This document shows, one piece after another, positions 148 through 37,551 of a DNA stretch of 64,000 nucleotides; position 1 is the first letter of the stretch; the number at the start of each line of letters is the position of its first letter. The DNA comes from a virus: positions 3,476 to 67,475 of IMG/VR virus record IMGVR_UViG_3300015242_000025; one strand, written 5' to 3'. Both the position numbers and the translations under genes were made by a program. The notes under the pieces were generated by a model. That model did not search any database. It worked only from the letters and a program-made list of their open reading frames with translations, and was not told the DNA's origin.

Positions 148-177
148 GGTAAGATTCCTTTCATCTGCTATCCCTCA

Positions 178-233
178 TAGATAGTCAACGCGATTACGGA
201 GCACAATCACTCCGTAATCACGCAAAGCATCTA
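178..233 (-). repeat. post-stop hairpin element, copy 1
   Basis: TAGATGCTTTGCG-TGATTACGGAG-loop-CTCCGTAATCG-CGTTGACTATCTA; begins at the TAG of ORF 231..383. Confidence 0.8.
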
Positions 234-383
234 TGCCGACACTAAATTGATTTCAACGACTTTAGCGTCGGGATATTCGGCAGACATGATCTGCTTTAGC
301 ATCACCATGTCTTGCGCATAGGTTGTGTGTTTGATCAACAGACTGTCATGTTTGTTTGTAATTACCTGTAGATACATTATCAT
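231..383 (-). CDS. hypothetical 50-aa protein (MIMYLQVITNKHDSLL...)
   Basis: ATG 383 with AAAGGA RBS, TAG 231; below the ORF-track cutoff. Confidence 0.65.
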   Translation of the reverse strand: MIMYLQVITNKHDSLLIKHTTYAQDMVMLKQIMSAEYPDAKVVEINLVSA

Positions 384-2707: not shown

Positions 2708-3118
2708 TCACTCAATTGGAACAGTACTAAACTTAAATCGAGATGTGGGAATGTTTGCAGCCTCCGCAAAGTCAGCGCACTTAGTTGCACCACGTGAATT
2801 GTCAAGGATGAATGCAAGACATTTATCTGCGCCAAGTGAAACCATAAACTTATTGCGTATTTGTCCTGCAGCTTTACCTATCACTCGCCACTGTACCGAT
2901 GTAACTTTGTGCGGTTCATGTTCCCATGGTTCGCCTAATTCGTTTTTATGATAAAGTGCACATTGTTTTGCTGTTTGATCTCCTCCACTAGCATCACCAT
3001 GAACAATAGTAATAAGTTCATTCTTTTTAGCCAAACTTGCGACTAATTCAATTTCTCGCCACATAAAATTATTATCAGCAGCTGGCCATGTACGACTAGC
3101 TGTTATGAGAATTCTCAT
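2708..3118 (-). CDS. SLOG-family (YspA/DUF2493-like) protein
   Basis: MRILITASRTW, IVHGDASGGD, AAGQIRN.FM, SRGAT motifs; ATGA overlap with the upstream ORF. Confidence 0.8.
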   Translation of the reverse strand: MRILITASRTWPAADNNFMWREIELVASLAKKNELITIVHGDASGGDQTAKQCALYHKNELGEPWEHEPHKVTSVQWRVIGKAAGQIRNKFMVSLGADKCLAFILDNSRGATKCADFAEAANIPTSRFKFSTVPIE

Positions 3119-3300
3119 TTTAATGTCAATTCCCAACTTGGATCATCTACTTCCAAGGTTAATATAAAGTCTCCATCAATATGCTCAGCATTAAGTACTT
3201 TTCCAATTCCTTTGTTAGTATTAAAACTTTGTCCAATTAAATCTTGTAAAGCTCCATCTGTCCATTGTTTATCATTGTGATAATATAATTTAACTTTCAT
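3115..3300 (-). CDS. hypothetical protein
   Basis: Tightly packed ORF with ATGA overlaps. Confidence 0.6.
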   Translation of the reverse strand: MKVKLYYHNDKQWTDGALQDLIGQSFNTNKGIGKVLNAEHIDGDFILTLEVDDPSWELTLK

Positions 3301-3676: not shown

Positions 3677-3677
3677 T

Positions 3678-4673
3678 TTAATATTGTCCCTTTACCTGAT
3701 CATAAATCCATTCATAGGTTGTTTCAATACCTGATCGTAACGAAGTTGTCGGTTCCCAACCAATTTTAGCTTTAATGAGAGAACTATCGCTATTACGTCC
3801 GCGAACACCCTGCGGTTTATCCAGTTGATAATATCGAGTTAATTTAACATTAGCAATTTCTTCAATTATATCTAGCAATCCATTGATAGAAATTAATTCT
3901 TCACTACCAACATTAAATGGATAAAAATAATTACTATTTGTAATTTTAATAGTACCATCTACACAATCATCTACATAAAGGAATGAACGTGTTTGCTCTC
4001 CATCTCCCCATATATCGATAGTGTGATCTTTAGTAATAACAGCTTGCGCTACTTTACGGCACAATGCAGCGGGAGCCTTTTCATGTCCATCATTCCAACT
4101 ACCATGCGGACCAAAAATATTATGATAACGTCCAATACGAGTTTGTAAATGACGCTCTATGTTATGACATTGCATAACATGTTCACCATAAAGTTTTTCC
4201 CAACCATACCCCGGTTCTGGGTCGGCAGGAATAGCAAAGTCTTCACGTAATGCACCGACATTAGGATTAATCTGTGCCCATTGTGGATAGACACATGCAG
4301 AAGATGAAAAGAAAATACGTTGATCAGTCTGACACATATTTAACAATGCAATGGTGTCAACAATATTTTCACTACACTTCACAAGATGATTAGTGATGTA
4401 ACCTATTCCACCCATGTTAGCGGCTAAATGATAAACATCATCAATAATACCAAGAGAAAACATACTTTCATTTAAATCACGTACAGAAATACTGTAATTA
4501 TTAGCACGATGATGAAGTTGCCACCAACGATTAATTGGTTTAATATCTACAGCAAAAACATTATGTCCATTGTTCAAAAGTTTTTTAACTAAGTGTCCGC
4601 CAATAAATCCCCCCGCTCCAGTGACGAGAATATTCCTACTTCGTAAATTAGCATCACTTTCTGTCCATGCCAT
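3678..4673 (-). CDS. NAD-dependent epimerase, GDP-mannose 3,5-epimerase-like
   Basis: TGAGGFIG, LAANMGGIG, SSACVYP, YGWEK, HNIFGP.GSW..G.EKAPAA.CRK, WGDGEQTRSF, GVRGRNSD; likely start MAWTE at 4673. Confidence 0.88.
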   Translation of the reverse strand: MAWTESDANLRSRNILVTGAGGFIGGHLVKKLLNNGHNVFAVDIKPINRWWQLHHRANNYSISVRDLNESMFSLGIIDDVYHLAANMGGIGYITNHLVKCSENIVDTIALLNMCQTDQRIFFSSSACVYPQWAQINPNVGALREDFAIPADPEPGYGWEKLYGEHVMQCHNIERHLQTRIGRYHNIFGPHGSWNDGHEKAPAALCRKVAQAVITKDHTIDIWGDGEQTRSFLYVDDCVDGTIKITNSNYFYPFNVGSEELISINGLLDIIEEIANVKLTRYYQLDKPQGVRGRNSDSSLIKAKIGWEPTTSLRSGIETTYEWIYDQVKGQY

Positions 4674-4674
4674 T

Positions 4675-5850: not shown

Positions 5851-5866
5851 TAATATCCTCCAATTA

Positions 5867-5910
5867 AAAATAATGGGACAGACATAGTTAAATGTCTATC
5901 CCATTATTTT
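5867..5910 (-). terminator. intrinsic terminator-like hairpin after SSB
   Basis: AAAATAATGGGA-CAGACAT...ATGTCT-A-TCCCATTATTTT inverted repeat with A/T tails. Confidence 0.65.
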
Positions 5911-5917
5911 ATCTTAT

Positions 5918-12910: not shown

Positions 12911-13309
12911 TTAATTCTGTTCATTGGGAACTTCAAGATAAGTAATTTCTTTACCTGCTTCTACTGCATAATCAATTTTAGCTTGCGTGCCTTCGCCAAT
13001 ATAACCATCGACGTTGAGGATATGAACCCTATCAGCAAGATCGATCTTACGCAAGTGCAGTTGAAACAAATGCTCTTTATCTTCTTCAAGCGGATTAAAA
13101 ACACCAACTGATAAAACAACATAACCTTGAAGTGTCAACTCACTATTAGCTTTAGAATAAGCTCCCATAAATCGAGTTGATCCACAGAGGACAACAATTT
13201 CTGGTAGCGGTCCTTCTTTAAAATCAACAACTACATCATGATATTCATAGCAATCATCAGGTTCATGGCTAGTGGTATACGTGATTTCTTGGATTTCATT
13301 TACTGACAT
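12911..13309 (-). CDS. nucleoside 2-deoxyribosyltransferase-like (DUF4406-related) protein
   Basis: LCGSTRF, LHLRKIDLAD, NVDGYIGE.T..KI.YA...GK; TAATG overlap with polA. Confidence 0.7.
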   Translation of the reverse strand: MSVNEIQEITYTTSHEPDDCYEYHDVVVDFKEGPLPEIVVLCGSTRFMGAYSKANSELTLQGYVVLSVGVFNPLEEDKEHLFQLHLRKIDLADRVHILNVDGYIGEGTQAKIDYAVEAGKEITYLEVPNEQN

Positions 13310-15180
13310 TATATATCCTTCACTTCTCCCCATTTATCTCCAACAGATACTGTTGAAGTAATAGGTACGCTGAGTAGATCTTTGTCGTTCATCACTTCTT
13401 TAATAGTGTGTATAGCATCATCAACATCTTCATTAGGAACATCAAAATCTATTTCATCATGCACGGGTAAAATCATGTAATCACCAAGTCCAGCAGCATC
13501 AGCCTCTAGCATTTTATATTTAAGTATTTCTCCTGCTGTTCCTTGAATCAGATAATTCAATAATGCATATTCTTTTCCTAGATCGGCAGTGTGTTTTCGC
13601 TGTGTCATGGGAGATCGTACATAAGCAATACCAGAATCAGCAGCATTTCTTCTGCTTTGTGCTTCAGTTTGATTTTGTAATCTTCTAATTCCAGGATATT
13701 GTTGATCTAATTTAGCCAAGAAAGCCGCTGCCGCTGCTACATCTAATTGTCCTTCAGAAGTTCTTATATCAGCTGTCCATGCAAATTTTTCAGCACCAGC
13801 ACCATATGCCTTAGCGTACATTGCATTCTTAACAGGTTGGCGTCGTTCATCTTTCTTATTGATAGCTGAATCATCAAATATACGACGTGCCATAGAAACA
13901 AAGAAATCATCAGGAGAATTAAATGCATCAATTAGTCCAGCATCCCCGGACAAATGAGCAAGTACCCGCATCTCGATTTGATCGAAGTCAGCTTTAAGCC
14001 ATTTTGAATTATCGCTAGAAATAAAACAATTACGAATGCGTGCTCCCTCTTTGGTCCGCACTGGCACGTTTTGTAAGTTGGGACTATCCATTGACATGCG
14101 ACCAGTGCGTACTCCGAATTTTCCTCCAGATTCAAAGAGTGTTTTTGCCATACCTCCAACGGTGTTGATAGAGGGATGTATTCTGCCGTCCCGTTCAGAT
14201 AATTCAATATAATTATGTAAGTATGTCGATACAATTTTCGTCGCCTGCCTGTGTCCTAAAACGGCTCCGGCTAACGGATGATTAACATGTTGAAGATATT
14301 CTTTAGCTACGGAGTATTTTCCCGTTTTTAAAGACTTATGAACTAGAGGAACACCAGCATTAACTAATGCTGCAGCAACTGAATCATTAGATCCCGGACT
14401 AAGATGATAGTATTCTTTACACCATTCTTCAACAAGTTGTTTATATTCAAGTAACTCATCATGGAATTGCTGTGTGTATTCTTTGTCAATACGTGTACCT
14501 TTGCGTGACATCTTTTCACAAATCCATGATACCGCGCGTTCTAATTCATAAGATTTTGGTGCTTCTGCTTTTACTGTAGGCCAAATGGCATTTTTCAATC
14601 TTACAGTTAATACGGGATCAAGAGCACCATAAATCCAATATGGTTCGTAGGTAATAGGAACTGTTGCCCAGGTCCACCCGCCATGTGTACCAATTCCATC
14701 ATTCAATAATTGTTGTGCTGCGCCTGCGCGAGGATCAACATAACGTTGTGCTGCATTTTTTAATGCAAGTGATCCAGTTGATGATAAAACATGTAGCATT
14801 AATCGAGTATCATGAATTTTATCAATAGGAATATGAATTCCTTCATGTGCTATCATCGAACGGTCATATGTCATGTTGTGCATGACATATTCACCAGTAA
14901 ATCTATTAACAACATTTTCAACAATTCCTCCCCAACGTTCAAAGGGAATTGCCCAGCCATGCATTTCATCACCAATTTGAACGAGACGTACTCGATCTTT
15001 ATCTTTATCTAATCCAGTAGTCTCACAATCGAATCCAATTTCATCATGATTACCTAGCCAATCATGAAAATCATGAACATCTTCCATCGTCTCTATCAGA
15101 TGTGCTTTTGCTTCATCTAATGGACGATAAGCTTGTTGAACTATAGTTGGCCTATCGTGCACTAATATTTTGTCAGTCAT
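13309..15180 (-). CDS. polA: DNA polymerase I family A (3'-5' exonuclease + polymerase)
   Basis: FDCETTGL, RTGRMS..PNLQNVP, ADFDQIEMR, K...Y...YG, NYLIQGTA, VHDEI. Confidence 0.96.
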   Translation of the reverse strand: MTDKILVHDRPTIVQQAYRPLDEAKAHLIETMEDVHDFHDWLGNHDEIGFDCETTGLDKDKDRVRLVQIGDEMHGWAIPFERWGGIVENVVNRFTGEYVMHNMTYDRSMIAHEGIHIPIDKIHDTRLMLHVLSSTGSLALKNAAQRYVDPRAGAAQQLLNDGIGTHGGWTWATVPITYEPYWIYGALDPVLTVRLKNAIWPTVKAEAPKSYELERAVSWICEKMSRKGTRIDKEYTQQFHDELLEYKQLVEEWCKEYYHLSPGSNDSVAAALVNAGVPLVHKSLKTGKYSVAKEYLQHVNHPLAGAVLGHRQATKIVSTYLHNYIELSERDGRIHPSINTVGGMAKTLFESGGKFGVRTGRMSMDSPNLQNVPVRTKEGARIRNCFISSDNSKWLKADFDQIEMRVLAHLSGDAGLIDAFNSPDDFFVSMARRIFDDSAINKKDERRQPVKNAMYAKAYGAGAEKFAWTADIRTSEGQLDVAAAAAFLAKLDQQYPGIRRLQNQTEAQSRRNAADSGIAYVRSPMTQRKHTADLGKEYALLNYLIQGTAGEILKYKMLEADAAGLGDYMILPVHDEIDFDVPNEDVDDAIHTIKEVMNDKDLLSVPITSTVSVGDKWGEVKDI

Positions 15181-15467
15181 GTTTTAGTACAACCTGGAAA
15201 ATGCATATCATTATCAAATTTATTGCTATGGTGAAGGTTTGCACCGCAACCTGAACATACAGTAGGATTTAATCCAAAGAATTTAGTACCTGATAACTTA
15301 TTAGTTCTATCAGATTTCCATCGTGCCATCCAAATTTTTTCTAGGGCACTATCTAATCTACGAGAAATACGAGGCGATTGGATTCTAGTTTCCATCGTCT
15401 CACGAACTATTTTTAATAGTGTTGCTGCTTCTGGATCAGTCAATACCACTGTAATCTCAGTGGGCAT
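15177..15467 (-). CDS. hypothetical protein with C-terminal CxxC..H..C
   Basis: ORF overlapping the polA start. Confidence 0.6.
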   Translation of the reverse strand: MPTEITVVLTDPEAATLLKIVRETMETRIQSPRISRRLDSALEKIWMARWKSDRTNKLSGTKFFGLNPTVCSGCGANLHHSNKFDNDMHFPGCTKT

Positions 15468-15702
15468 TTTGTTCTACTCCTTCTGCAAATGAATTATTAA
15501 TAGTAATCGTTAACGTAACTACACCTTCATAATTGGTATCAACAGCAGAGTCACCGTTATATATACAACCGTATTTATTGTACCAAGAAGTGTAGGAATT
15601 AACGATACCACGTAGCCAGATATGATCGCTTTGATCATTATCAATTAAATATTCATATGATTCAAGGTATTCAATAACGCCGGGATCGGCAGGTATTTTC
15701 AT
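15457..15702 (-). CDS. hypothetical protein (MKIPADPG...)
   Basis: AGGA RBS before ATG 15702. Confidence 0.6.
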   Translation of the reverse strand: MKIPADPGVIEYLESYEYLIDNDQSDHIWLRGIVNSYTSWYNKYGCIYNGDSAVDTNYEGVVTLTITINNSFAEGVEQNAH

Positions 15703-15721
15703 TAAATGAATTCCTAAATTA

Positions 15722-16152
15722 AAATGGGTCCGTTTACAGCCCGTCCGGACCAACGACGGTCGAGAACGTGAATCCGCGGATTCTCGCCTTCTCATTTACT
15801 CAATTATAAGACGAAGACGGCAGTAGACCTCTTATAGTTTTTCAATGACACGTGGTGCTTATGAAGTTTAAATCCGATGAAGGAGAGAGATAATATAATA
15901 TTTATTCTCTCCCCCATCGGCACATGAATAATCCCGTGGGAGGTTATTCATATGTTATAACAGAAAATATTAGATAAATCACCAACAGAATCACATGAAA
16001 TACGGGGGAATTCATGCGACCGTTCCCCGGATTAATCTAATATTCCTGACTTTGTTATTTAATTGTAGGAGAAAGCGGATAGAATTTTATGACAACAACG
16101 ACAATAATTCTATCCGCTTTCCCGTCTTCAACAGGAGGTCCAGCGCCTGCTC
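15722..16152 (-). ncRNA. candidate large structured ncRNA with several pseudoknots
   Basis: Contiguous hairpins, two H-type pseudoknots, two long-range pairings, G-U pairs favouring the minus strand, TATAGT -10 at 16165-16170. Confidence 0.7.
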
Positions 16153-16192
16153 TTTAAATCTATCACTATATGGACAAGATCACCAGCACTTT

Positions 16193-17008
16193 TTACGGAG
16201 TGCAGCTGGTCGTGATATTTCCATCACTTGTACCTTGTCCATCATCACCTGGTTTAATTCCATCATTCCAGGTCTGAGTATGGCAACCTAAAGTATACTG
16301 CCAAAGATAAGTGCTAATATTGATGGAACCAAAATAAGTTCCATTGGGGAAAAATTGCTTTACCCAATCAGTTGTACTAAATAATCCATGGCCGTCTTGA
16401 TGTGTAGTAACCAATGAACCGTCAGGCTTATTGGAACTGGCGTAGAATTCTACTTTTCCGCCGCCTTGGAATGTTCCATTATATGCGTTATCAATTGCCC
16501 CACCTAAACCAGTGTTGGGTGCAGCATGACCGCTGACAGTTGTAAAAGTTCCGCCACTATCAACCAATGATGCGGTATAGAAATAACATTGCGCTGCACT
16601 TCCGCCACAATTACCAGCATCAACAGGATTTTGTCGAGTAACTGTAACTGTACGTGTCATATTATCAACTGCCCAGCCTGAGCTTTCTGGCCAATTAATA
16701 ATTGATGTTTGTGCGGTTGAAGTTTCAGCAACAGCGGAATCGACACCTGGAGCGCCATTTCCTTCTGCCCAATTTACTCGCGTTGCCCATGATGAACAAC
16801 CTGGATAAGTGTTTGTTCCGTCATAAACATAAAAACGACCGCCAACAAGTGCATGCGTAGAAGGATTTACACATCCCCACAATAGCGGTTTATCGGTGGA
16901 TGCCTGCAATGAATGTGATGCATTTGCTGAACTACCGAAAAGCAATACTGCCATTCCAGCAGTCAATGCGGCGATACCAAGTACCGCCAAAATTCTCTTG
17001 AGTTTCAC
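16193..17008 (-). CDS. secreted protein with Sec signal peptide
   Basis: MKLKRILAVLGIAALTAGMAVLLFGSSANA cleavage-type N-terminus; paired Cys; Gly/Thr-rich. Confidence 0.75.
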   Translation of the reverse strand: MKLKRILAVLGIAALTAGMAVLLFGSSANASHSLQASTDKPLLWGCVNPSTHALVGGRFYVYDGTNTYPGCSSWATRVNWAEGNGAPGVDSAVAETSTAQTSIINWPESSGWAVDNMTRTVTVTRQNPVDAGNCGGSAAQCYFYTASLVDSGGTFTTVSGHAAPNTGLGGAIDNAYNGTFQGGGKVEFYASSNKPDGSLVTTHQDGHGLFSTTDWVKQFFPNGTYFGSINISTYLWQYTLGCHTQTWNDGIKPGDDGQGTSDGNITTSCTP

Positions 17009-17247: not shown

Positions 17248-17275
17248 CTATTTTCTCCTTTGTTTTTATAAAACG

Positions 17276-17359
17276 TACGGGTAACGGGACTCGAACCCGT
17301 AAGTCCTTTCAGACAATTGATTTTAAGTCAATCGCGGTTGCCAATTTCGCCATACCCGC
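17276..17359 (-). tRNA. tRNA-Leu (anticodon TAA)
   Basis: GCGGGTA/TACCCGT acceptor, ATTGA-CTTAAAA-TCAAT anticodon arm, long variable arm, GTTCGAGTC T-arm. Confidence 0.93.
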
Positions 17360-21223: not shown

Positions 21224-21236
21224 ACTAATTTTCAGA

Positions 21237-21297
21237 AGATAAGTGTCTAACTAAAATGCTAACTACAGAAACCCATAGAGTTGTTAGACACTTATCT
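21237..21297. repeat. 15-bp perfect inverted repeat in the divergent control region
   Basis: AGATAAGTGTCTAAC (21237-21251) / GTTAGACACTTATCT (21283-21297). Confidence 0.8.
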
Positions 21298-21723
21298 CCC
21301 ATTAATCGAGTATCCTCATTGTTGCTTCCTATATGGACTTGGTTATCGATCGGTTATTGTTGCCACGTAGAAAGCAATAACTCGATACCACAAGCTTAAC
21401 AGATTTGACTCATGCGTGCGCGTGCGCGCGCGGAGTAAGAACAGCTCTAGCTAGATGATCATGGAGTAGGCGCGGCGCGGCGCCTATATTAGCCCGGTTG
21501 GGTGAGGTACGATACACATCTGTAGCGCGGGTCAGCGCAAAGGGGGATTTAGGGCAAATCAATACTTTTTACATGATATAGGAATAACGAATTGCGTAAA
21601 TCAATTTGCTTAGAAGAAAGCAAATGAAAATGATTGCTAGCTTTGCTTTGCTCAAAATCAATAACTAAATTGAATTTTAGGTTAAATACTATAGGAAATT
21701 TGATGTAAGAAAAGAGTGAGTTT

Positions 21724-36786: not shown

Positions 36787-36788
36787 AT

Positions 36789-37550
36789 ATGAAAGAAAAT
36801 TTTTTCCTAGAACAGGCTGAAGCATGGAAAAATATTCCTATAGATGATGTAGGATATTTTAATACTGAAGAATTAATGATGAAGTCTGATGATGTCTTAA
36901 AGAAAATGATTATTGATATGGAGAAAATAAGATATAATGAAGGTTATCGTAACTGGGGTAATAAATGGCGTAGTACTTTAAAACTTGACACGACTCATGG
37001 TAAACGTGTTTTAGATTATGGTTGTGGATCAGGTATAGAAGCTTTACAATATGCTAAAACTGGTAATCATGTTTACCTTGCTGATATCAATGCAAGTAAT
37101 ATTTCACTTGCAGAAAAAATATTAAAAGTATTTGGATTTAAACCTATACATTCCTATTTAATTACAAATGTTTATCCATTCACTGGAGCTATAACAAATA
37201 AATTTGATATTGTTCATATGAATGGAGTATTACATCACATATTTCAGCCATATCCTGTTGTACGAGCTATTCATGAATCACTTATTAATGATGGTGAATT
37301 AAGGTTAATGTTATATTCAGATATTGCATGGAGAATAGCAACTAATACAGAGCCTCCAGAAGATGTTACTAATAACCCTATGAGAAAAACTTTTGTTCGT
37401 ACAATGGACGGTGTTGGAGAGTGGGCAGATTGGTATGATGCTGATAGAATAGAAAAAAGATTTGGTAGTTTATTTACAATTGAAGAATTTTCCTATATTA
37501 CTTCAGATGATAGATATTGTACCGCTATTTTAAAACGAAAGGAAATTTAA
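36789..37550 (+). CDS. class I SAM-dependent methyltransferase
   Basis: VLDYGCGSG, LADI, FDIVH..GVLHH, LMLY; likely start MKENFF. Confidence 0.88.
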   Translation: MKENFFLEQAEAWKNIPIDDVGYFNTEELMMKSDDVLKKMIIDMEKIRYNEGYRNWGNKWRSTLKLDTTHGKRVLDYGCGSGIEALQYAKTGNHVYLADINASNISLAEKILKVFGFKPIHSYLITNVYPFTGAITNKFDIVHMNGVLHHIFQPYPVVRAIHESLINDGELRLMLYSDIAWRIATNTEPPEDVTNNPMRKTFVRTMDGVGEWADWYDADRIEKRFGSLFTIEEFSYITSDDRYCTAILKRKEI

Positions 37551-37551
37551 A

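What the first reader, a model, noticed from the sequence alone, without database searches (positions are those of the whole stretch)
15722..16152. Candidate novel ~430-nt ncRNA with multiple pseudoknots
Seen (forward coordinates, RNA on the minus strand): a 16-bp perfect stem 16071-86/16106-21; a 15-bp stem 15966-80/16030-44 enclosing an H-type pseudoknot (stem 16003-10/16023-30, loop 16011-19 pairing with 15991-99); hairpins 15874-920, 15922-955 and 15762-793; and a terminal H-type pseudoknot (15741-45/15755-59 and 15727-32/15746-51) followed by U's. Two ~300-nt-range pairings, 16135-41/15825-31 and 16122-29/15813-20, are in crossed order. A TATAGT -10 sits at 16165-70. The region lacks tmRNA, RNase P and intron signatures. 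Established: phages carry large ornate RNAs (ROOL, GOLLD), often near tRNAs; tRNA-Leu is ~1.1 kb upstream. Inference: an undescribed large structured RNA class.
Basis: partly seen in the sequence, partly recalled or inferred. Interest (0 to 1): 0.85.

Follow-up and report, generated by a model that had tools for sequence, protein, structure and literature searches.

The report
Orphan structured RNA in soil phage
A 490-base gene-free gap in an uncultured soil phage folds into an unusually stable bundle of RNA hairpins that matches no known RNA family, but no relatives could be found, so whether it is a new RNA gene or a processing and control region between two gene blocks stays open.

Summary
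The stems are real. All 8 claimed pairings are in the sequence with at most 1 mismatch each. The gap 15703-16192 is the most structured of 12 gap/strand combinations tested in the window (z -6.96, next -3.96).

The signal sits in a 329-nt core, 15819-16147, closed by a 12-bp long-range helix: z -9.5 as minus-strand RNA and -6.1 as plus-strand RNA. The fold has 23 G-U pairs and no A-C mismatch, which points to the minus strand.

The 3' 116 nt are no more stable than shuffles (z -0.43). The terminal pseudoknot is a separate 30-35-nt module. It has a second copy in the genome and occurs in two other contexts in a metagenome. It looks like a promoter-plus-stem-loop cassette.

No Rfam family matches. 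No homologue turned up in 50,697 phage records, IMG/VR patterns, 93 polymerase-related loci or 5 whole relative records. So there is no covariation test and no evidence of a class. No expression data were available.

My best reading, at 0.4, is a cis-acting hairpin array at the boundary between early and replication genes. A free-standing ncRNA gets 0.3.

This scan has noted other structured RNAs upstream of phage polymerase genes on other DNA. I did not test those.

The parts
15703..16192 (-). Gene-free gap between the stop of a 271-aa signal-peptide protein (16193-17008) and the ATG (15702) of an 81-aa ORF. That ORF is followed by a 96-aa ORF and a family A DNA polymerase (13309-15180).
   Evidence: Only ORFs of 39 aa or fewer lie wholly inside the gap. 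The gap folds at -160 kcal/mol, z -6.2.
15819..16147 (-). 329-nt core domain: a multi-hairpin junction closed by a long-range helix.
   Evidence: -121.6 kcal/mol, z -9.5 as minus-strand RNA. z -6.1 as plus-strand RNA. z -7.0 as minus-strand ssDNA.
16135..16147 (-). 5' strand of the closing helix (12 bp with a C-C mismatch). It pairs with 15819-15831 and contains ACCUCCU.
   Evidence: Pair probability 0.94-0.98. A GC-weighted score is reached by 6 of 500 shuffles, plain pair count by 206 of 500. No differences in the X3 and X4 contigs.
15819..15831 (-). 3' strand of the closing helix.
   Evidence: Not covered by the variant contigs.
16069..16123 (-). Hairpin H1: 18 bp uninterrupted (1 G-U) with a 19-nt loop.
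   Evidence: In a variant contig, 5 substitutions and 5 deleted letters fall at 16084-16110, yet the hairpin is kept (-26.0 against -29.1 kcal/mol). Substituted 16084 and 16107 pair with each other.
15961..16048 (-). Hairpin H2: an 18-bp lower stem with bulges plus an 11-bp distal stem (3 G-U). An alternative 7-of-8 stem, 16023-16030/16003-16010, would make an H-type pseudoknot. The apical loop is C-rich.
   Evidence: The pseudoknot is a complementarity only and is untested.
15921..15954 (-). Hairpin H3: 11 bp with a C-rich loop (CCUCCCACGGGA). It abuts H4 with no linker.
   Evidence: probability 0.99. pair I4, shows a 12-of-15 alternative pairing with the H2 apex.
15874..15920 (-). Hairpin H4: 15 + 4 bp (2 G-U).
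   Evidence: -25.3 kcal/mol.
15841..15865 (-). Small hairpin H5 (4 + 4 bp).
   Evidence: probability 0.90-0.97.
15727..15759 (-). Repeated 30-35-nt module. It can form an H-type pseudoknot (stems 5 and 6 bp, loops 3 and 8 nt) or a stem-loop lying between promoter-like hexamers. It is followed by an A+U-rich stretch that carries the RBS.
   Evidence: - A second copy lies at G000:C1:3032-3061 (27 of 30 identical).
- It is found in two further contexts in run X1 (records 5 and 6).
- A geometry search over both strands of the 67,475-nt genome finds only these two copies.
- In copy 2 the scan tool calls CGGACA-17-TATAAT, 10 of 12.
16165..16170 (-). TATAGT, a -10-like hexamer with no recognisable -35.
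   Evidence: Not called by the promoter scan. It lies in the stretch 16111-16190, which is unchanged in the variant contigs.
15944..16015 (-). 23-codon ORF for a hydrophobic peptide inside H2/H3. Probably spurious.
   Evidence: The upstream GGGGAA is a weak RBS (reading). No homologue test was possible.

Best explanation
The gap is a real RNA-level element of the leftward (minus-strand) transcript, and it is composite.

A 329-nt core (15819-16147) folds into four long hairpins of about 11-20 bp plus a small one, drawn together by a 12-bp helix between its ends. It sits at the boundary between an early block (tRNA-Leu, secreted protein) and the replication block (small ORFs, DNA polymerase, helicase). 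I read it as a cis-acting array.

Inferred mechanism: the long, nearly perfect helices are substrates for a double-strand-specific RNase (RNase III type), or barriers to exonucleases. They uncouple the upstream and downstream mRNAs and leave protective hairpins at the new ends.

Downstream of the core lies a separate, reusable 30-35-nt module at 15727-15759. It is a promoter-plus-stem-loop cassette (or pseudoknot operator) placed just ahead of the A+U-rich ribosome-binding region of the first replication-block gene. It would restart or tune expression of that block.

Shown: the fold, its strand bias, its rank within the genome, the modularity of the 3' element, and the absence of any known family. 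Inferred: transcription, cleavage, and the promoter or operator function.
For: - **Stability.** Whole gap z -6.2 and -6.96, the lowest of 12 gap/strand combinations. Core z -9.5.
- **Strand bias.** The minus-strand fold has 23 G-U pairs among 160. None of its 6 one-by-one mismatches is A-C. Mirroring the structure onto the plus strand loses 23 pairs and gives -93.9 kcal/mol. Minus -121.6 against plus -100.2 kcal/mol.
- **Helix form.** Uninterrupted helices of 18, 15 and 11 bp are the length that dsRNA-specific nucleases use (recalled knowledge). Globular ncRNAs rarely keep such helices (recalled).
- **No terminators.** No canonical terminator is called in the gap.
- **Genome habit.** The same genome has other strong minus-strand hairpins at gene ends: 176-235, 481-540, 1451-1510 and 5856-5915.
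- **Variant contigs.** Nothing changes at 16111-16190, while the flanking coding DNA shows 4 changes in 74 nt. The H1 apex changes heavily but stays paired.
- **The 3' module stands alone.** It has a second copy in another structured gap and two other contexts, with flanks diverging at the motif. Copy 2 is called as CGGACA-17-TATAAT with the stem-loop between the hexamers. That is the commonest layout of PeSL cassettes, which also flank gene 43 polymerase in RB49 and phi1 (PMC2839356, abstract and section 13 read).
- **No fold signal in the 3' part.** The 3' 116 nt add no nested-fold signal.
Against: - No transcript, cleavage or promoter data of any kind.
- Four hairpins in tandem, closed by a long-range helix with few unpaired bases and short A-rich linkers, look more like one folded domain than like punctuation.
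- T7-type RNase III sites come singly (recalled).
- The window copy of the 3' module has only a poor -10 (TTTAAT or TAATTT). The promoter scan does not call it.
- One of the other contexts (record 5) has no -10-like hexamer after the motif.
- The variant's H1 carries an A-C mismatch on the minus strand that would be G-U on the plus strand.
- The conservation evidence rests on single contigs of depth 2-2.5.
Confidence: 0.4

Rival explanations
1. A free-standing large structured non-coding RNA. It would start at the TATAGT -10 (start near 16158) and run through the 329-nt core to the G+C-rich hairpin and U-run at 15742-15715. It would act in trans or as a structural RNA, in the manner of ROOL or GOLLD, or through its C-rich loops on ribosome-binding sites.
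For: - Core z -9.5.
- Compact junction with a closing helix of probability 0.94-0.98, reached by 6 of 500 shuffles in a GC-weighted score.
- Strand bias.
- The TATAGT and the 5' strand of the closing helix lie in a stretch unchanged in the variant contigs.
- In the window copy, GGGCUG-UAAA-CGGACCC followed by AUUUUAAUUU has the shape of an intrinsic terminator.
- No known family matches.
- tRNA-Leu lies 1.1 kb upstream.
- ROOL and GOLLD are large ornate RNAs (PMC12286853, abstract seen in the listing). Their link to phages and tRNAs is recalled.
Against: - No homologue anywhere searched, so no covariation.
- No -35, and the promoter scan makes no call.
- The terminator-like hairpin is not kept in the second copy of the motif. 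There GGG and CCC both change without compensation, whereas the pseudoknot stem is kept.
- Helices of 15-18 perfect pairs are unusual for stable globular RNAs (recalled).
- The plain pair count of the closing helix is common in shuffles (206 of 500).
Confidence: 0.3
2. A replication element. Either a structured pre-primer transcript (as ColE1 RNA II or the T7 primary origin use, both recalled), or hairpins extruded in single-stranded DNA that mark an origin next to the replication genes.
For: - The gap lies directly upstream of the replication block with a family A polymerase.
- It folds strongly with DNA parameters too (z -7.0).
- G-T pairs would give the same strand bias in ssDNA (inference).
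Against: - No iterons. Direct repeats in the gap are only 10-15 nt two-copy matches.
- The gap is not A+T-rich (40% G+C against 38% around it).
- The strand-switch region at 21224-21723 is a more usual place for an origin.
- None of the polymerase relatives has a gap at this place.
Confidence: 0.1
3. The mRNA of a small hydrophobic toxin-like peptide (23 aa, 15944-16015), held inactive by a heavily folded transcript with 5'-3' pairing, as in type I toxin-antitoxin loci such as hok/sok (recalled).
For: - The ORF encodes a hydrophobic stretch.
- Its start and weak RBS lie inside H2.
- A long-range 5'-3' helix is present.
- A plus-strand promoter-like site at 15867-15894 would give an antisense RNA.
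Against: - U-rich hairpin arms in a 38% G+C genome give hydrophobic ORFs by chance.
- The RBS is weak.
- There is no charged tail.
- No homologue or conservation test was possible.
- A 23-codon ORF in 490 nt is expected by chance.
Confidence: 0.04
4. No present function: leftover inverted repeats, or a decayed gene, that happen to fold.
For: Singleton, with no homologues. Some pairings are at chance level.
Against: - z -9.5, with 0 of 100 shuffles as good.
- Ten G-U pairs against no A-C mismatch in the main helices.
- No six-frame similarity to any of 95 related loci at E <= 1.
- The H1 stem is kept through 10 changed positions in its apex.
- 16111-16190 is unchanged in the variants.
Confidence: 0.08

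Closest known systems
PeSL (promoter-early stem-loop) mobile regulatory cassettes of T4-type phages RB49 and phi1 (Arbiol et al. 2010, PMC2839356; abstract and section 13 read)
   Same: This applies to the 3' module only.
- It is a short repeated intergenic motif with a stem-loop lying between -35-like and -10-like hexamers (copy 2: CGGACA-17-TATAAT).
- An SD and a start codon follow it.
- It sits next to a DNA polymerase block.
- Sequence contexts switch at the motif.
   Different: - Two copies per genome, against about 50.
- There is no sequence relation.
- The window copy has a poor -10.
- The stems can also form an H-type pseudoknot.
- Promoter and terminator activity are untested.
- The phage is not T4-like.
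T4 gene 32 translational operator (review PMC3014915, passages of section 24 read)
   Same: [quoted passage not shown] It lies ahead of replication genes.
   Different: - The downstream gene is not an SSB.
- The second copy lies about 130 nt from its gene's start.
- No binding protein is known.
- There is no sequence similarity.
ROOL (RF03087) and GOLLD (RF01998) large ornate RNAs (PMC12286853 and PMC5737381: abstracts seen in the listing)
   Same: It is a large, ORF-free, many-helix RNA candidate in a phage genome, with a tRNA gene nearby. Accessions and the tRNA link are recalled.
   Different: - No covariance-model match, even at E <= 10.
- About 330 nt, against about 580-800 nt (recalled).
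- Long perfect hairpins rather than ornate junctions.
- A singleton without a family.
RNase III processing hairpins between genes of phage T7 early mRNA (recalled; the search brought up no T7 paper that I read)
   Same: Hairpins of about 20 bp lie between genes of a polycistronic phage transcript, without U-tracts.
   Different: T7 sites occur singly and have an internal loop. Here four hairpins stand in tandem inside a closing helix. Cleavage is untested.
Staphylococcus aureus RNAIII (recalled)
   Same: It is about 0.5 kb, with many hairpins, long-range helices, C-rich apical loops and a small embedded ORF.
   Different: No homology. Host and targets are unknown. This is an analogy only.

Membership tests
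Any Rfam 15 family (including ROOL, GOLLD, OLE, raiA, HEARO, tmRNA, RNase P, group I/II introns, riboswitch pseudoknots) | Covariance-model score at or above the family's gathering score | tested here: not met
   One search found only two tRNAs in the window. One search (15500-16400, E <= 10) gave 9 matches, all far below gathering: miRNA and snoRNA models, and a plastid group II D5 model at 20 bits against 90.
tRNA / tmRNA | ARAGORN cloverleaf or tag-peptide model | tested here: not met
   One search found only tRNA-Gly (407-479) and tRNA-Leu (17275-17359).
Intrinsic terminators | G+C-rich hairpin followed directly by a U-run | tested here: not met
   calls no terminator-like site inside 15703-16192. 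By reading, H1-H4 are followed by UCCUACAA, UUAUAAC, CCGAUGG and AUUUAAAC. Only the terminal GGGCUG..CGGACCC hairpin has a U-run, and it is not kept in copy 2.
PeSL-like promoter + stem-loop cassette (3' module only) | Sigma-70-like -35 and -10 hexamers at 16-18 nt | tested here: inconclusive
   Copy 2 is called at 10 of 12. The window copy is not called. Record 6 of run X1 has TATAAT at the same distance; record 5 has none (my reading).
PeSL-like promoter + stem-loop cassette (3' module only) | Stem-loop within or beside the promoter; the motif is repeated and sits at junctions of variable DNA | tested here: met
   GUCCG/CGGAC lies between the hexamers. There are two copies in the genome and two more contexts with unlike flanks.
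PeSL-like promoter + stem-loop cassette (3' module only) | Promoter and terminator activity | not testable with these tools
   Needs reporter assays.
Gene 32-type pseudoknot operator (3' module only) | H-type pseudoknot upstream of an A+U-rich stretch that overlaps the RBS | tested here: inconclusive
   The geometry is present in both copies and nowhere else on either strand of the 67,475-nt genome. Stem 1 changes from CCGUC/GACGG to GUGUC/GACAU and stays paired, but about 1 in 5 such changes would pair by chance (my estimate). The A+U-rich RBS stretch is adjacent only in the window copy.
Gene 32-type pseudoknot operator (3' module only) | Binding by the regulated protein | not testable with these tools
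   No candidate protein was identified. Neighbouring ORFs have no Pfam or PHROG function.
Conserved structured ncRNA class (the general criterion) | Homologues in other genomes with compensatory changes in the proposed pairs | tested here: not met
   - No homologue in 50,697 phage records.
- None in IMG/VR by two exact patterns.
- None in 185,579 species genomes by one pattern.
- None in 93 polymerase-related loci by nhmmer or blastn.
- None in 5 whole relative records.
- Only fragmentary strain variants exist.
Iteron-type replication origin | Arrays of direct repeats next to an A+T-rich stretch | tested here: not met
   One search found only four two-copy direct repeats of 10-15 nt. G+C of the gap is 0.40.

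The most novel reading that the evidence does not exclude
The 329-nt core, perhaps with its 3' modules, is a free-standing phage non-coding RNA of a new class. It would be a compact multi-helix junction closed by a long-range helix, with loop-loop or pseudoknot contacts among its C-rich and G-rich loops, carried by an A+T-rich offshoot of high-G+C actinophage-like viruses. It might be one instance of a wider habit of phages to place structured RNAs just ahead of their DNA polymerase genes.
Probability: 0.25. Interest if true: 0.7.

Novelty: new member of a known kind. Interest (0 to 1): 0.42.

Why it matters
If the core is a discrete RNA, it adds an orphan large structured RNA from a phage lineage with no cultured relative. 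The closest cultured polymerase is 37% identical.

This scan has noted other structured RNAs directly upstream of phage polymerase genes (untested here). Together they would suggest a recurring, unexplained link between structured RNA and phage replication genes.

If it is a processing and control region, it is a clear case of how a phage punctuates a 25-kb operon with RNA structure. Its 3' module would extend PeSL-type mobile regulatory cassettes beyond T4-type phages.

Either way the claim cannot be strengthened without relatives or transcripts.

Tried and rejected
**Homologue hunts that found nothing**
- blastn 'distant' against phages.
- nhmmer and blastn against 4 and then 93 polymerase-related loci. 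The best blastn match is 33 nt, 88%, E 0.001, in L049. It lies inside the polymerase ORF on the opposite strand, so I took it as chance.
- Exact patterns in viral contigs and genome contigs.
- The locus of the 271-aa neighbour's only relative, L096.
- Whole records of 5 relatives (one 19-nt match at E 0.8).
- tblastx of the gap against 95 loci (none at E <= 1).
- The scan's own index (nothing).

**Relatives' layout**
- No relative has an ORF-free stretch of 300 nt or more upstream of the polymerase match. The largest are 269 and 184 nt.
- All ten downstream 'gaps' have a stop-free frame across them, so they are coding.

**Closer polymerase relatives**
- Relatives at 58-63% and 97% identity exist only as proteins.

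**Expression**
- No RNA holder is listed for this stretch. All four runs laid were DNA contigs.
- Parts of the gap without cover in X3 and X4 say nothing.
- X3 record 9 (37 nt, 5 differences, unlike flanks) was not interpreted.

**Other tests set aside**
- RNAduplex of the flanks did not discriminate (156 of 1000 shuffles as good).
- Pfam and PHROGs gave no function for the neighbouring ORFs.
- No further copy of the 3' motif turned up at up to 3 mismatches or by a two-copy HMM (next best E 0.85).
- I built no covariance model. With one sequence and relatives of 59-70% G+C it seemed unlikely to find anything, and a 329-position model would exceed the calibration limit.

**Readings rejected**
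- Intron: no Rfam match, and the flanking ORFs are not halves of one gene.
- MITE-like insertion: I saw no target duplication beside the closing helix.
- Retron or omega-RNA: no reverse transcriptase, IscB or TnpB among the ORFs listed.

**Papers**
- The search yielded no paper on T7 RNase III sites that I read. Those statements are recalled.
- Supplements of PMC2839356 were not opened; they may hold the PeSL reporter data.
Full report
**Setting.** The window is bases 3476-67475 of a 67,475-nt IMG/VR virus record, estimated 83% complete. Its G+C content is about 38%. Genes left of about 21,700 run on the minus strand.

The finding lies in a gap between two genes. Upstream, a 271-aa protein with a signal-peptide-like N-terminus (16193-17008) ends at a stop codon. 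Downstream, an 81-aa ORF begins at an ATG at 15702, preceded by AGGAA. After it come a 96-aa ORF and a family A DNA polymerase at 13309-15180 (PF01612 + PF00476).

An upstream in-frame ATG at 15795 would extend the 81-aa ORF by 31 Arg-rich codons. I did not adopt it. The extension covers a motif that is clearly non-coding in its second copy.

The neighbouring ORFs have no Pfam or PHROG function. The closest cultured polymerases belong to actinophages, at 37% identity or less. The closest uncultured ones are 58-63% identical.

The TATAGT hexamer is there too. The inverted repeats also appear in the repeat finder.
- The 489-nt gap folds at -160 kcal/mol against -120.8 +/- 6.3 for shuffles: z -6.2, with 0 of 100 as good.
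- Among 12 long gap/strand combinations of the window it is the most structured: z -6.96, next -3.96 and -3.32 at 21224-21723 (25 shuffles each).
- The signal is not spread evenly. The core 15819-16147 (329 nt) has z -9.5.
- The 3' 116 nt (15703-15818) have z -0.43, with 60 of 200 shuffles as good.

**Anatomy of the core.** Each item gives the pair probability from the fold.

| Element | Coordinates | Pairs | Probability |
|---|---|---|---|
| Closing helix | 16147-16135 / 15831-15819 | 12 bp | 0.94-0.98 |
| H1 | 16123-16106 / 16086-16069 | 18 bp | 0.96 |
| H2, lower stems | 16048-16030 / 15980-15961 | 18 bp with bulges | 0.62-0.98 |
| H2, distal stem | 16021-16011 / 15999-15989 | 11 bp | 0.90 |
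| H3 | 15954-15944 / 15931-15921 | 11 bp | 0.99 |
| H4 | 15920-15902 / 15893-15874 | 15 + 4 bp | 0.99, 0.74 |
| H5 | 15865-15841 | 4 + 4 bp | 0.90-0.97 |

H3 abuts H4 with no linker. The other linkers are short and A-rich.

The closing helix is only borderline against chance. A GC-weighted 13-nt score is reached by 6 of 500 shuffles of the flanks, but the plain count of pairs is reached by 206 of 500 and the longest run by 371 of 500. I chose the weighted score after seeing the helix.

It competes with the closing helix and with the base of H1. I do not count it as established.

The inner pseudoknot in H2 (7 of 8 pairs) is sterically plausible only with a shortened second stem (my reasoning). 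It has a competitor in a 12-of-15 pairing between the H2 apex and the H3 loop (pair I4).

**Strand.** The minus-strand fold has 23 G-U pairs among 160, and none of its six 1x1 mismatches is A-C. Mirrored onto the plus strand it loses 23 pairs and drops to -93.9 kcal/mol. The plus strand's own best fold of the core is -100.2 kcal/mol (z -6.1) against -121.6 for the minus strand.

In the main helices I count ten G-U pairs and no A-C. Decay of a DNA palindrome would spread these evenly between the strands. This favours a single-stranded minus-strand molecule. RNA is the simplest candidate, because the flanking genes are on that strand. Minus-strand ssDNA folds well too (z -7.0) and cannot be excluded from sequence alone.

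**Known families.** Rfam 15 finds only the two tRNAs in the window at gathering scores. At E <= 10 in 15500-16400 it gives nine junk matches far below threshold. ARAGORN finds no tmRNA.

**Relatives.** This is where the 'class' claim fails for lack of data.
- No DNA match in 50,697 phage records.
- Polymerase-guided searches of IMG/VR and JGI metagenomes gave 93 loci (some contigs were fetched twice). The seven I sampled have 61-69% G+C.
- None gives an nhmmer hit.
- None has an ORF-free stretch of 300 nt or more upstream of the polymerase.
- Their downstream 'gaps' are coding.
- Whole records of five relatives hold nothing at E < 0.8.
- Three exact-pattern scans were empty.
- tblastx shows no decayed gene.

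**Strain variants.** Two runs (X1, X2) hold the stretch identically and may be its source. Two others (X3, X4) hold fragments, as 151-nt contigs of depth 2-2.5.
- In X4, 16114-16190 shows 0 differences in 77 nt. The adjoining 16191-16264 shows 4 in 74.
- In X3, 16111-16190 shows none. The apex of H1 (16084-16110) carries 5 substitutions and 5 deleted letters.
- I rebuilt that variant in a script. Its hairpin is kept at -26.0 against -29.1 kcal/mol. The lower 13 pairs are unchanged, the upper stem shifts register by one, and substituted 16084 and 16107 pair with each other. One A-C mismatch is left.

This is the only comparative support for any helix. It is thin, because it rests on one low-depth contig. 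The mismatch would be G-U on the plus strand.

**The 3' module.** That copy sits in another structured gap (334 nt, z -4.2).
- A two-copy HMM finds no third copy; the next best hit has E 0.85.
- A search for H-type pseudoknot geometry over both strands of the genome returns exactly these two sites.
- Stem 1 differs between the copies (CCGUC/GACGG against GUGUC/GACAU) and stays paired. I estimate about a 1-in-5 chance of that, and it lies at the edge of the homology.
- In run X1 the assembly graph branches at the motif. Two further contigs carry it with unlike flanks (records 5 and 6).
- In copy 2 and in record 6 a TATAAT follows at the same distance. For copy 2 the scan tool calls CGGACA-17-TATAAT (10 of 12), the only promoter-like site in that gap.
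- The window copy has only TTTAAT or TAATTT and is not called. Record 5 goes straight to GAAGGAG and an ATG.

A stem-loop between -35 and -10, followed by an SD and a start codon, repeated at junctions of variable DNA and next to polymerase genes, is what Arbiol et al. describe as PeSL cassettes in RB49 and phi1 (PMC2839356, abstract and section 13).

There is a second way to read the module. A pseudoknot followed by an A+U-rich stretch over the RBS recalls the T4 gene 32 operator (PMC3014915, section 24 passages).

On either reading the module is a unit of its own, not the 3' domain of a 430-nt RNA.

**What it most likely is.** I put 0.8 on a functional single-stranded, minus-strand element. 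Within that:
- 0.4 on a cis-acting hairpin array at the boundary between early and replication genes, plus a reusable control cassette;
- 0.3 on a free-standing ncRNA;
- 0.1 on a replication element.

For the cis reading:
- The helices are long and nearly perfect, which is dsRNA-nuclease length.
- None of H1-H4 has a U-run.
- The 3' end is modular.

For the ncRNA reading:
- The junction is compact.
- The closing helix has high pair probability.
- The 5' stretch with TATAGT is conserved in the variants.
- The window copy ends in a terminator-shaped hairpin, although copy 2 does not keep that hairpin.

The 23-codon hydrophobic ORF prompts a type I toxin reading. I rate that at 0.04, because its RBS is weak and such ORFs arise by chance in U-rich hairpin arms.

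**Novelty and score.** The element belongs to no described family. It is a singleton without covariation or expression evidence. Hairpin-rich intergenic RNA and promoter-stem-loop cassettes are known kinds in phages, so I rate it a new member of a known kind, interest 0.42.

The boldest reading still open is a new class of large phage ncRNA ahead of the polymerase gene: probability 0.25, interest 0.7 if true. Earlier notes of this scan report other, unrelated structured RNAs just upstream of phage polymerase genes (e1-6084557, e1-5814297, e1-5673635). I did not test them, and the index holds no look-alike of this stretch.

Noticed in passing
G000:C1 about 2891-3224 (L002 1360-1693, minus strand; outside the window): A second structured gene-free gap (334 nt, -110 kcal/mol, z -4.2). 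It holds the second copy of the 30-nt motif, and a promoter-like CGGACA-17-TATAAT is called across it.
   Followed up: partly
Rfam gives no hammerhead match at E <= 1 in 1-2400; only tRNA-Gly is found.
   Followed up: partly
window 176-235, 481-540, 1451-1510, 5856-5915: Strong minus-strand hairpins at gene ends, -26 to -33 kcal/mol in 60-nt windows. Two of them flank tRNA-Gly. The one at 5867-5910 has A-runs and T-runs on its two sides, like a two-way terminator.
   Followed up: no
window 21224-21723: The strand-switch gap between the leftward and rightward gene blocks is the second most structured gap (z -3.3 minus, -4.0 plus). It has a G+C-rich centre with CGCG runs.
   Followed up: no
whole window against loci L003-L096: The phage has about 38% G+C. 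Eight loci of relatives that I measured have 61-69%: seven by polymerase and L096 by the 271-aa neighbour. The best cultured relatives are actinophages at 37% polymerase identity or less.
   Followed up: partly
window 15150-15219 (start of the polymerase gene): A co-occurring strain has a polymerase 97% identical but with a different N-terminus (P0122). A contig in run X1 switches sequence at 15183. This is a mosaic joint at the gene start.
   Followed up: no
window 3677-4674 and 36787-37551: My crude ORF filter left long gaps of 998 and 765 nt with no fold signal (z -0.2 and -1.2).
   Followed up: no
window 15944-16015, minus strand: A 23-codon ORF for a hydrophobic peptide lies inside hairpins H2/H3. 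It is probably a by-product of U-rich stem arms.
   Followed up: partly
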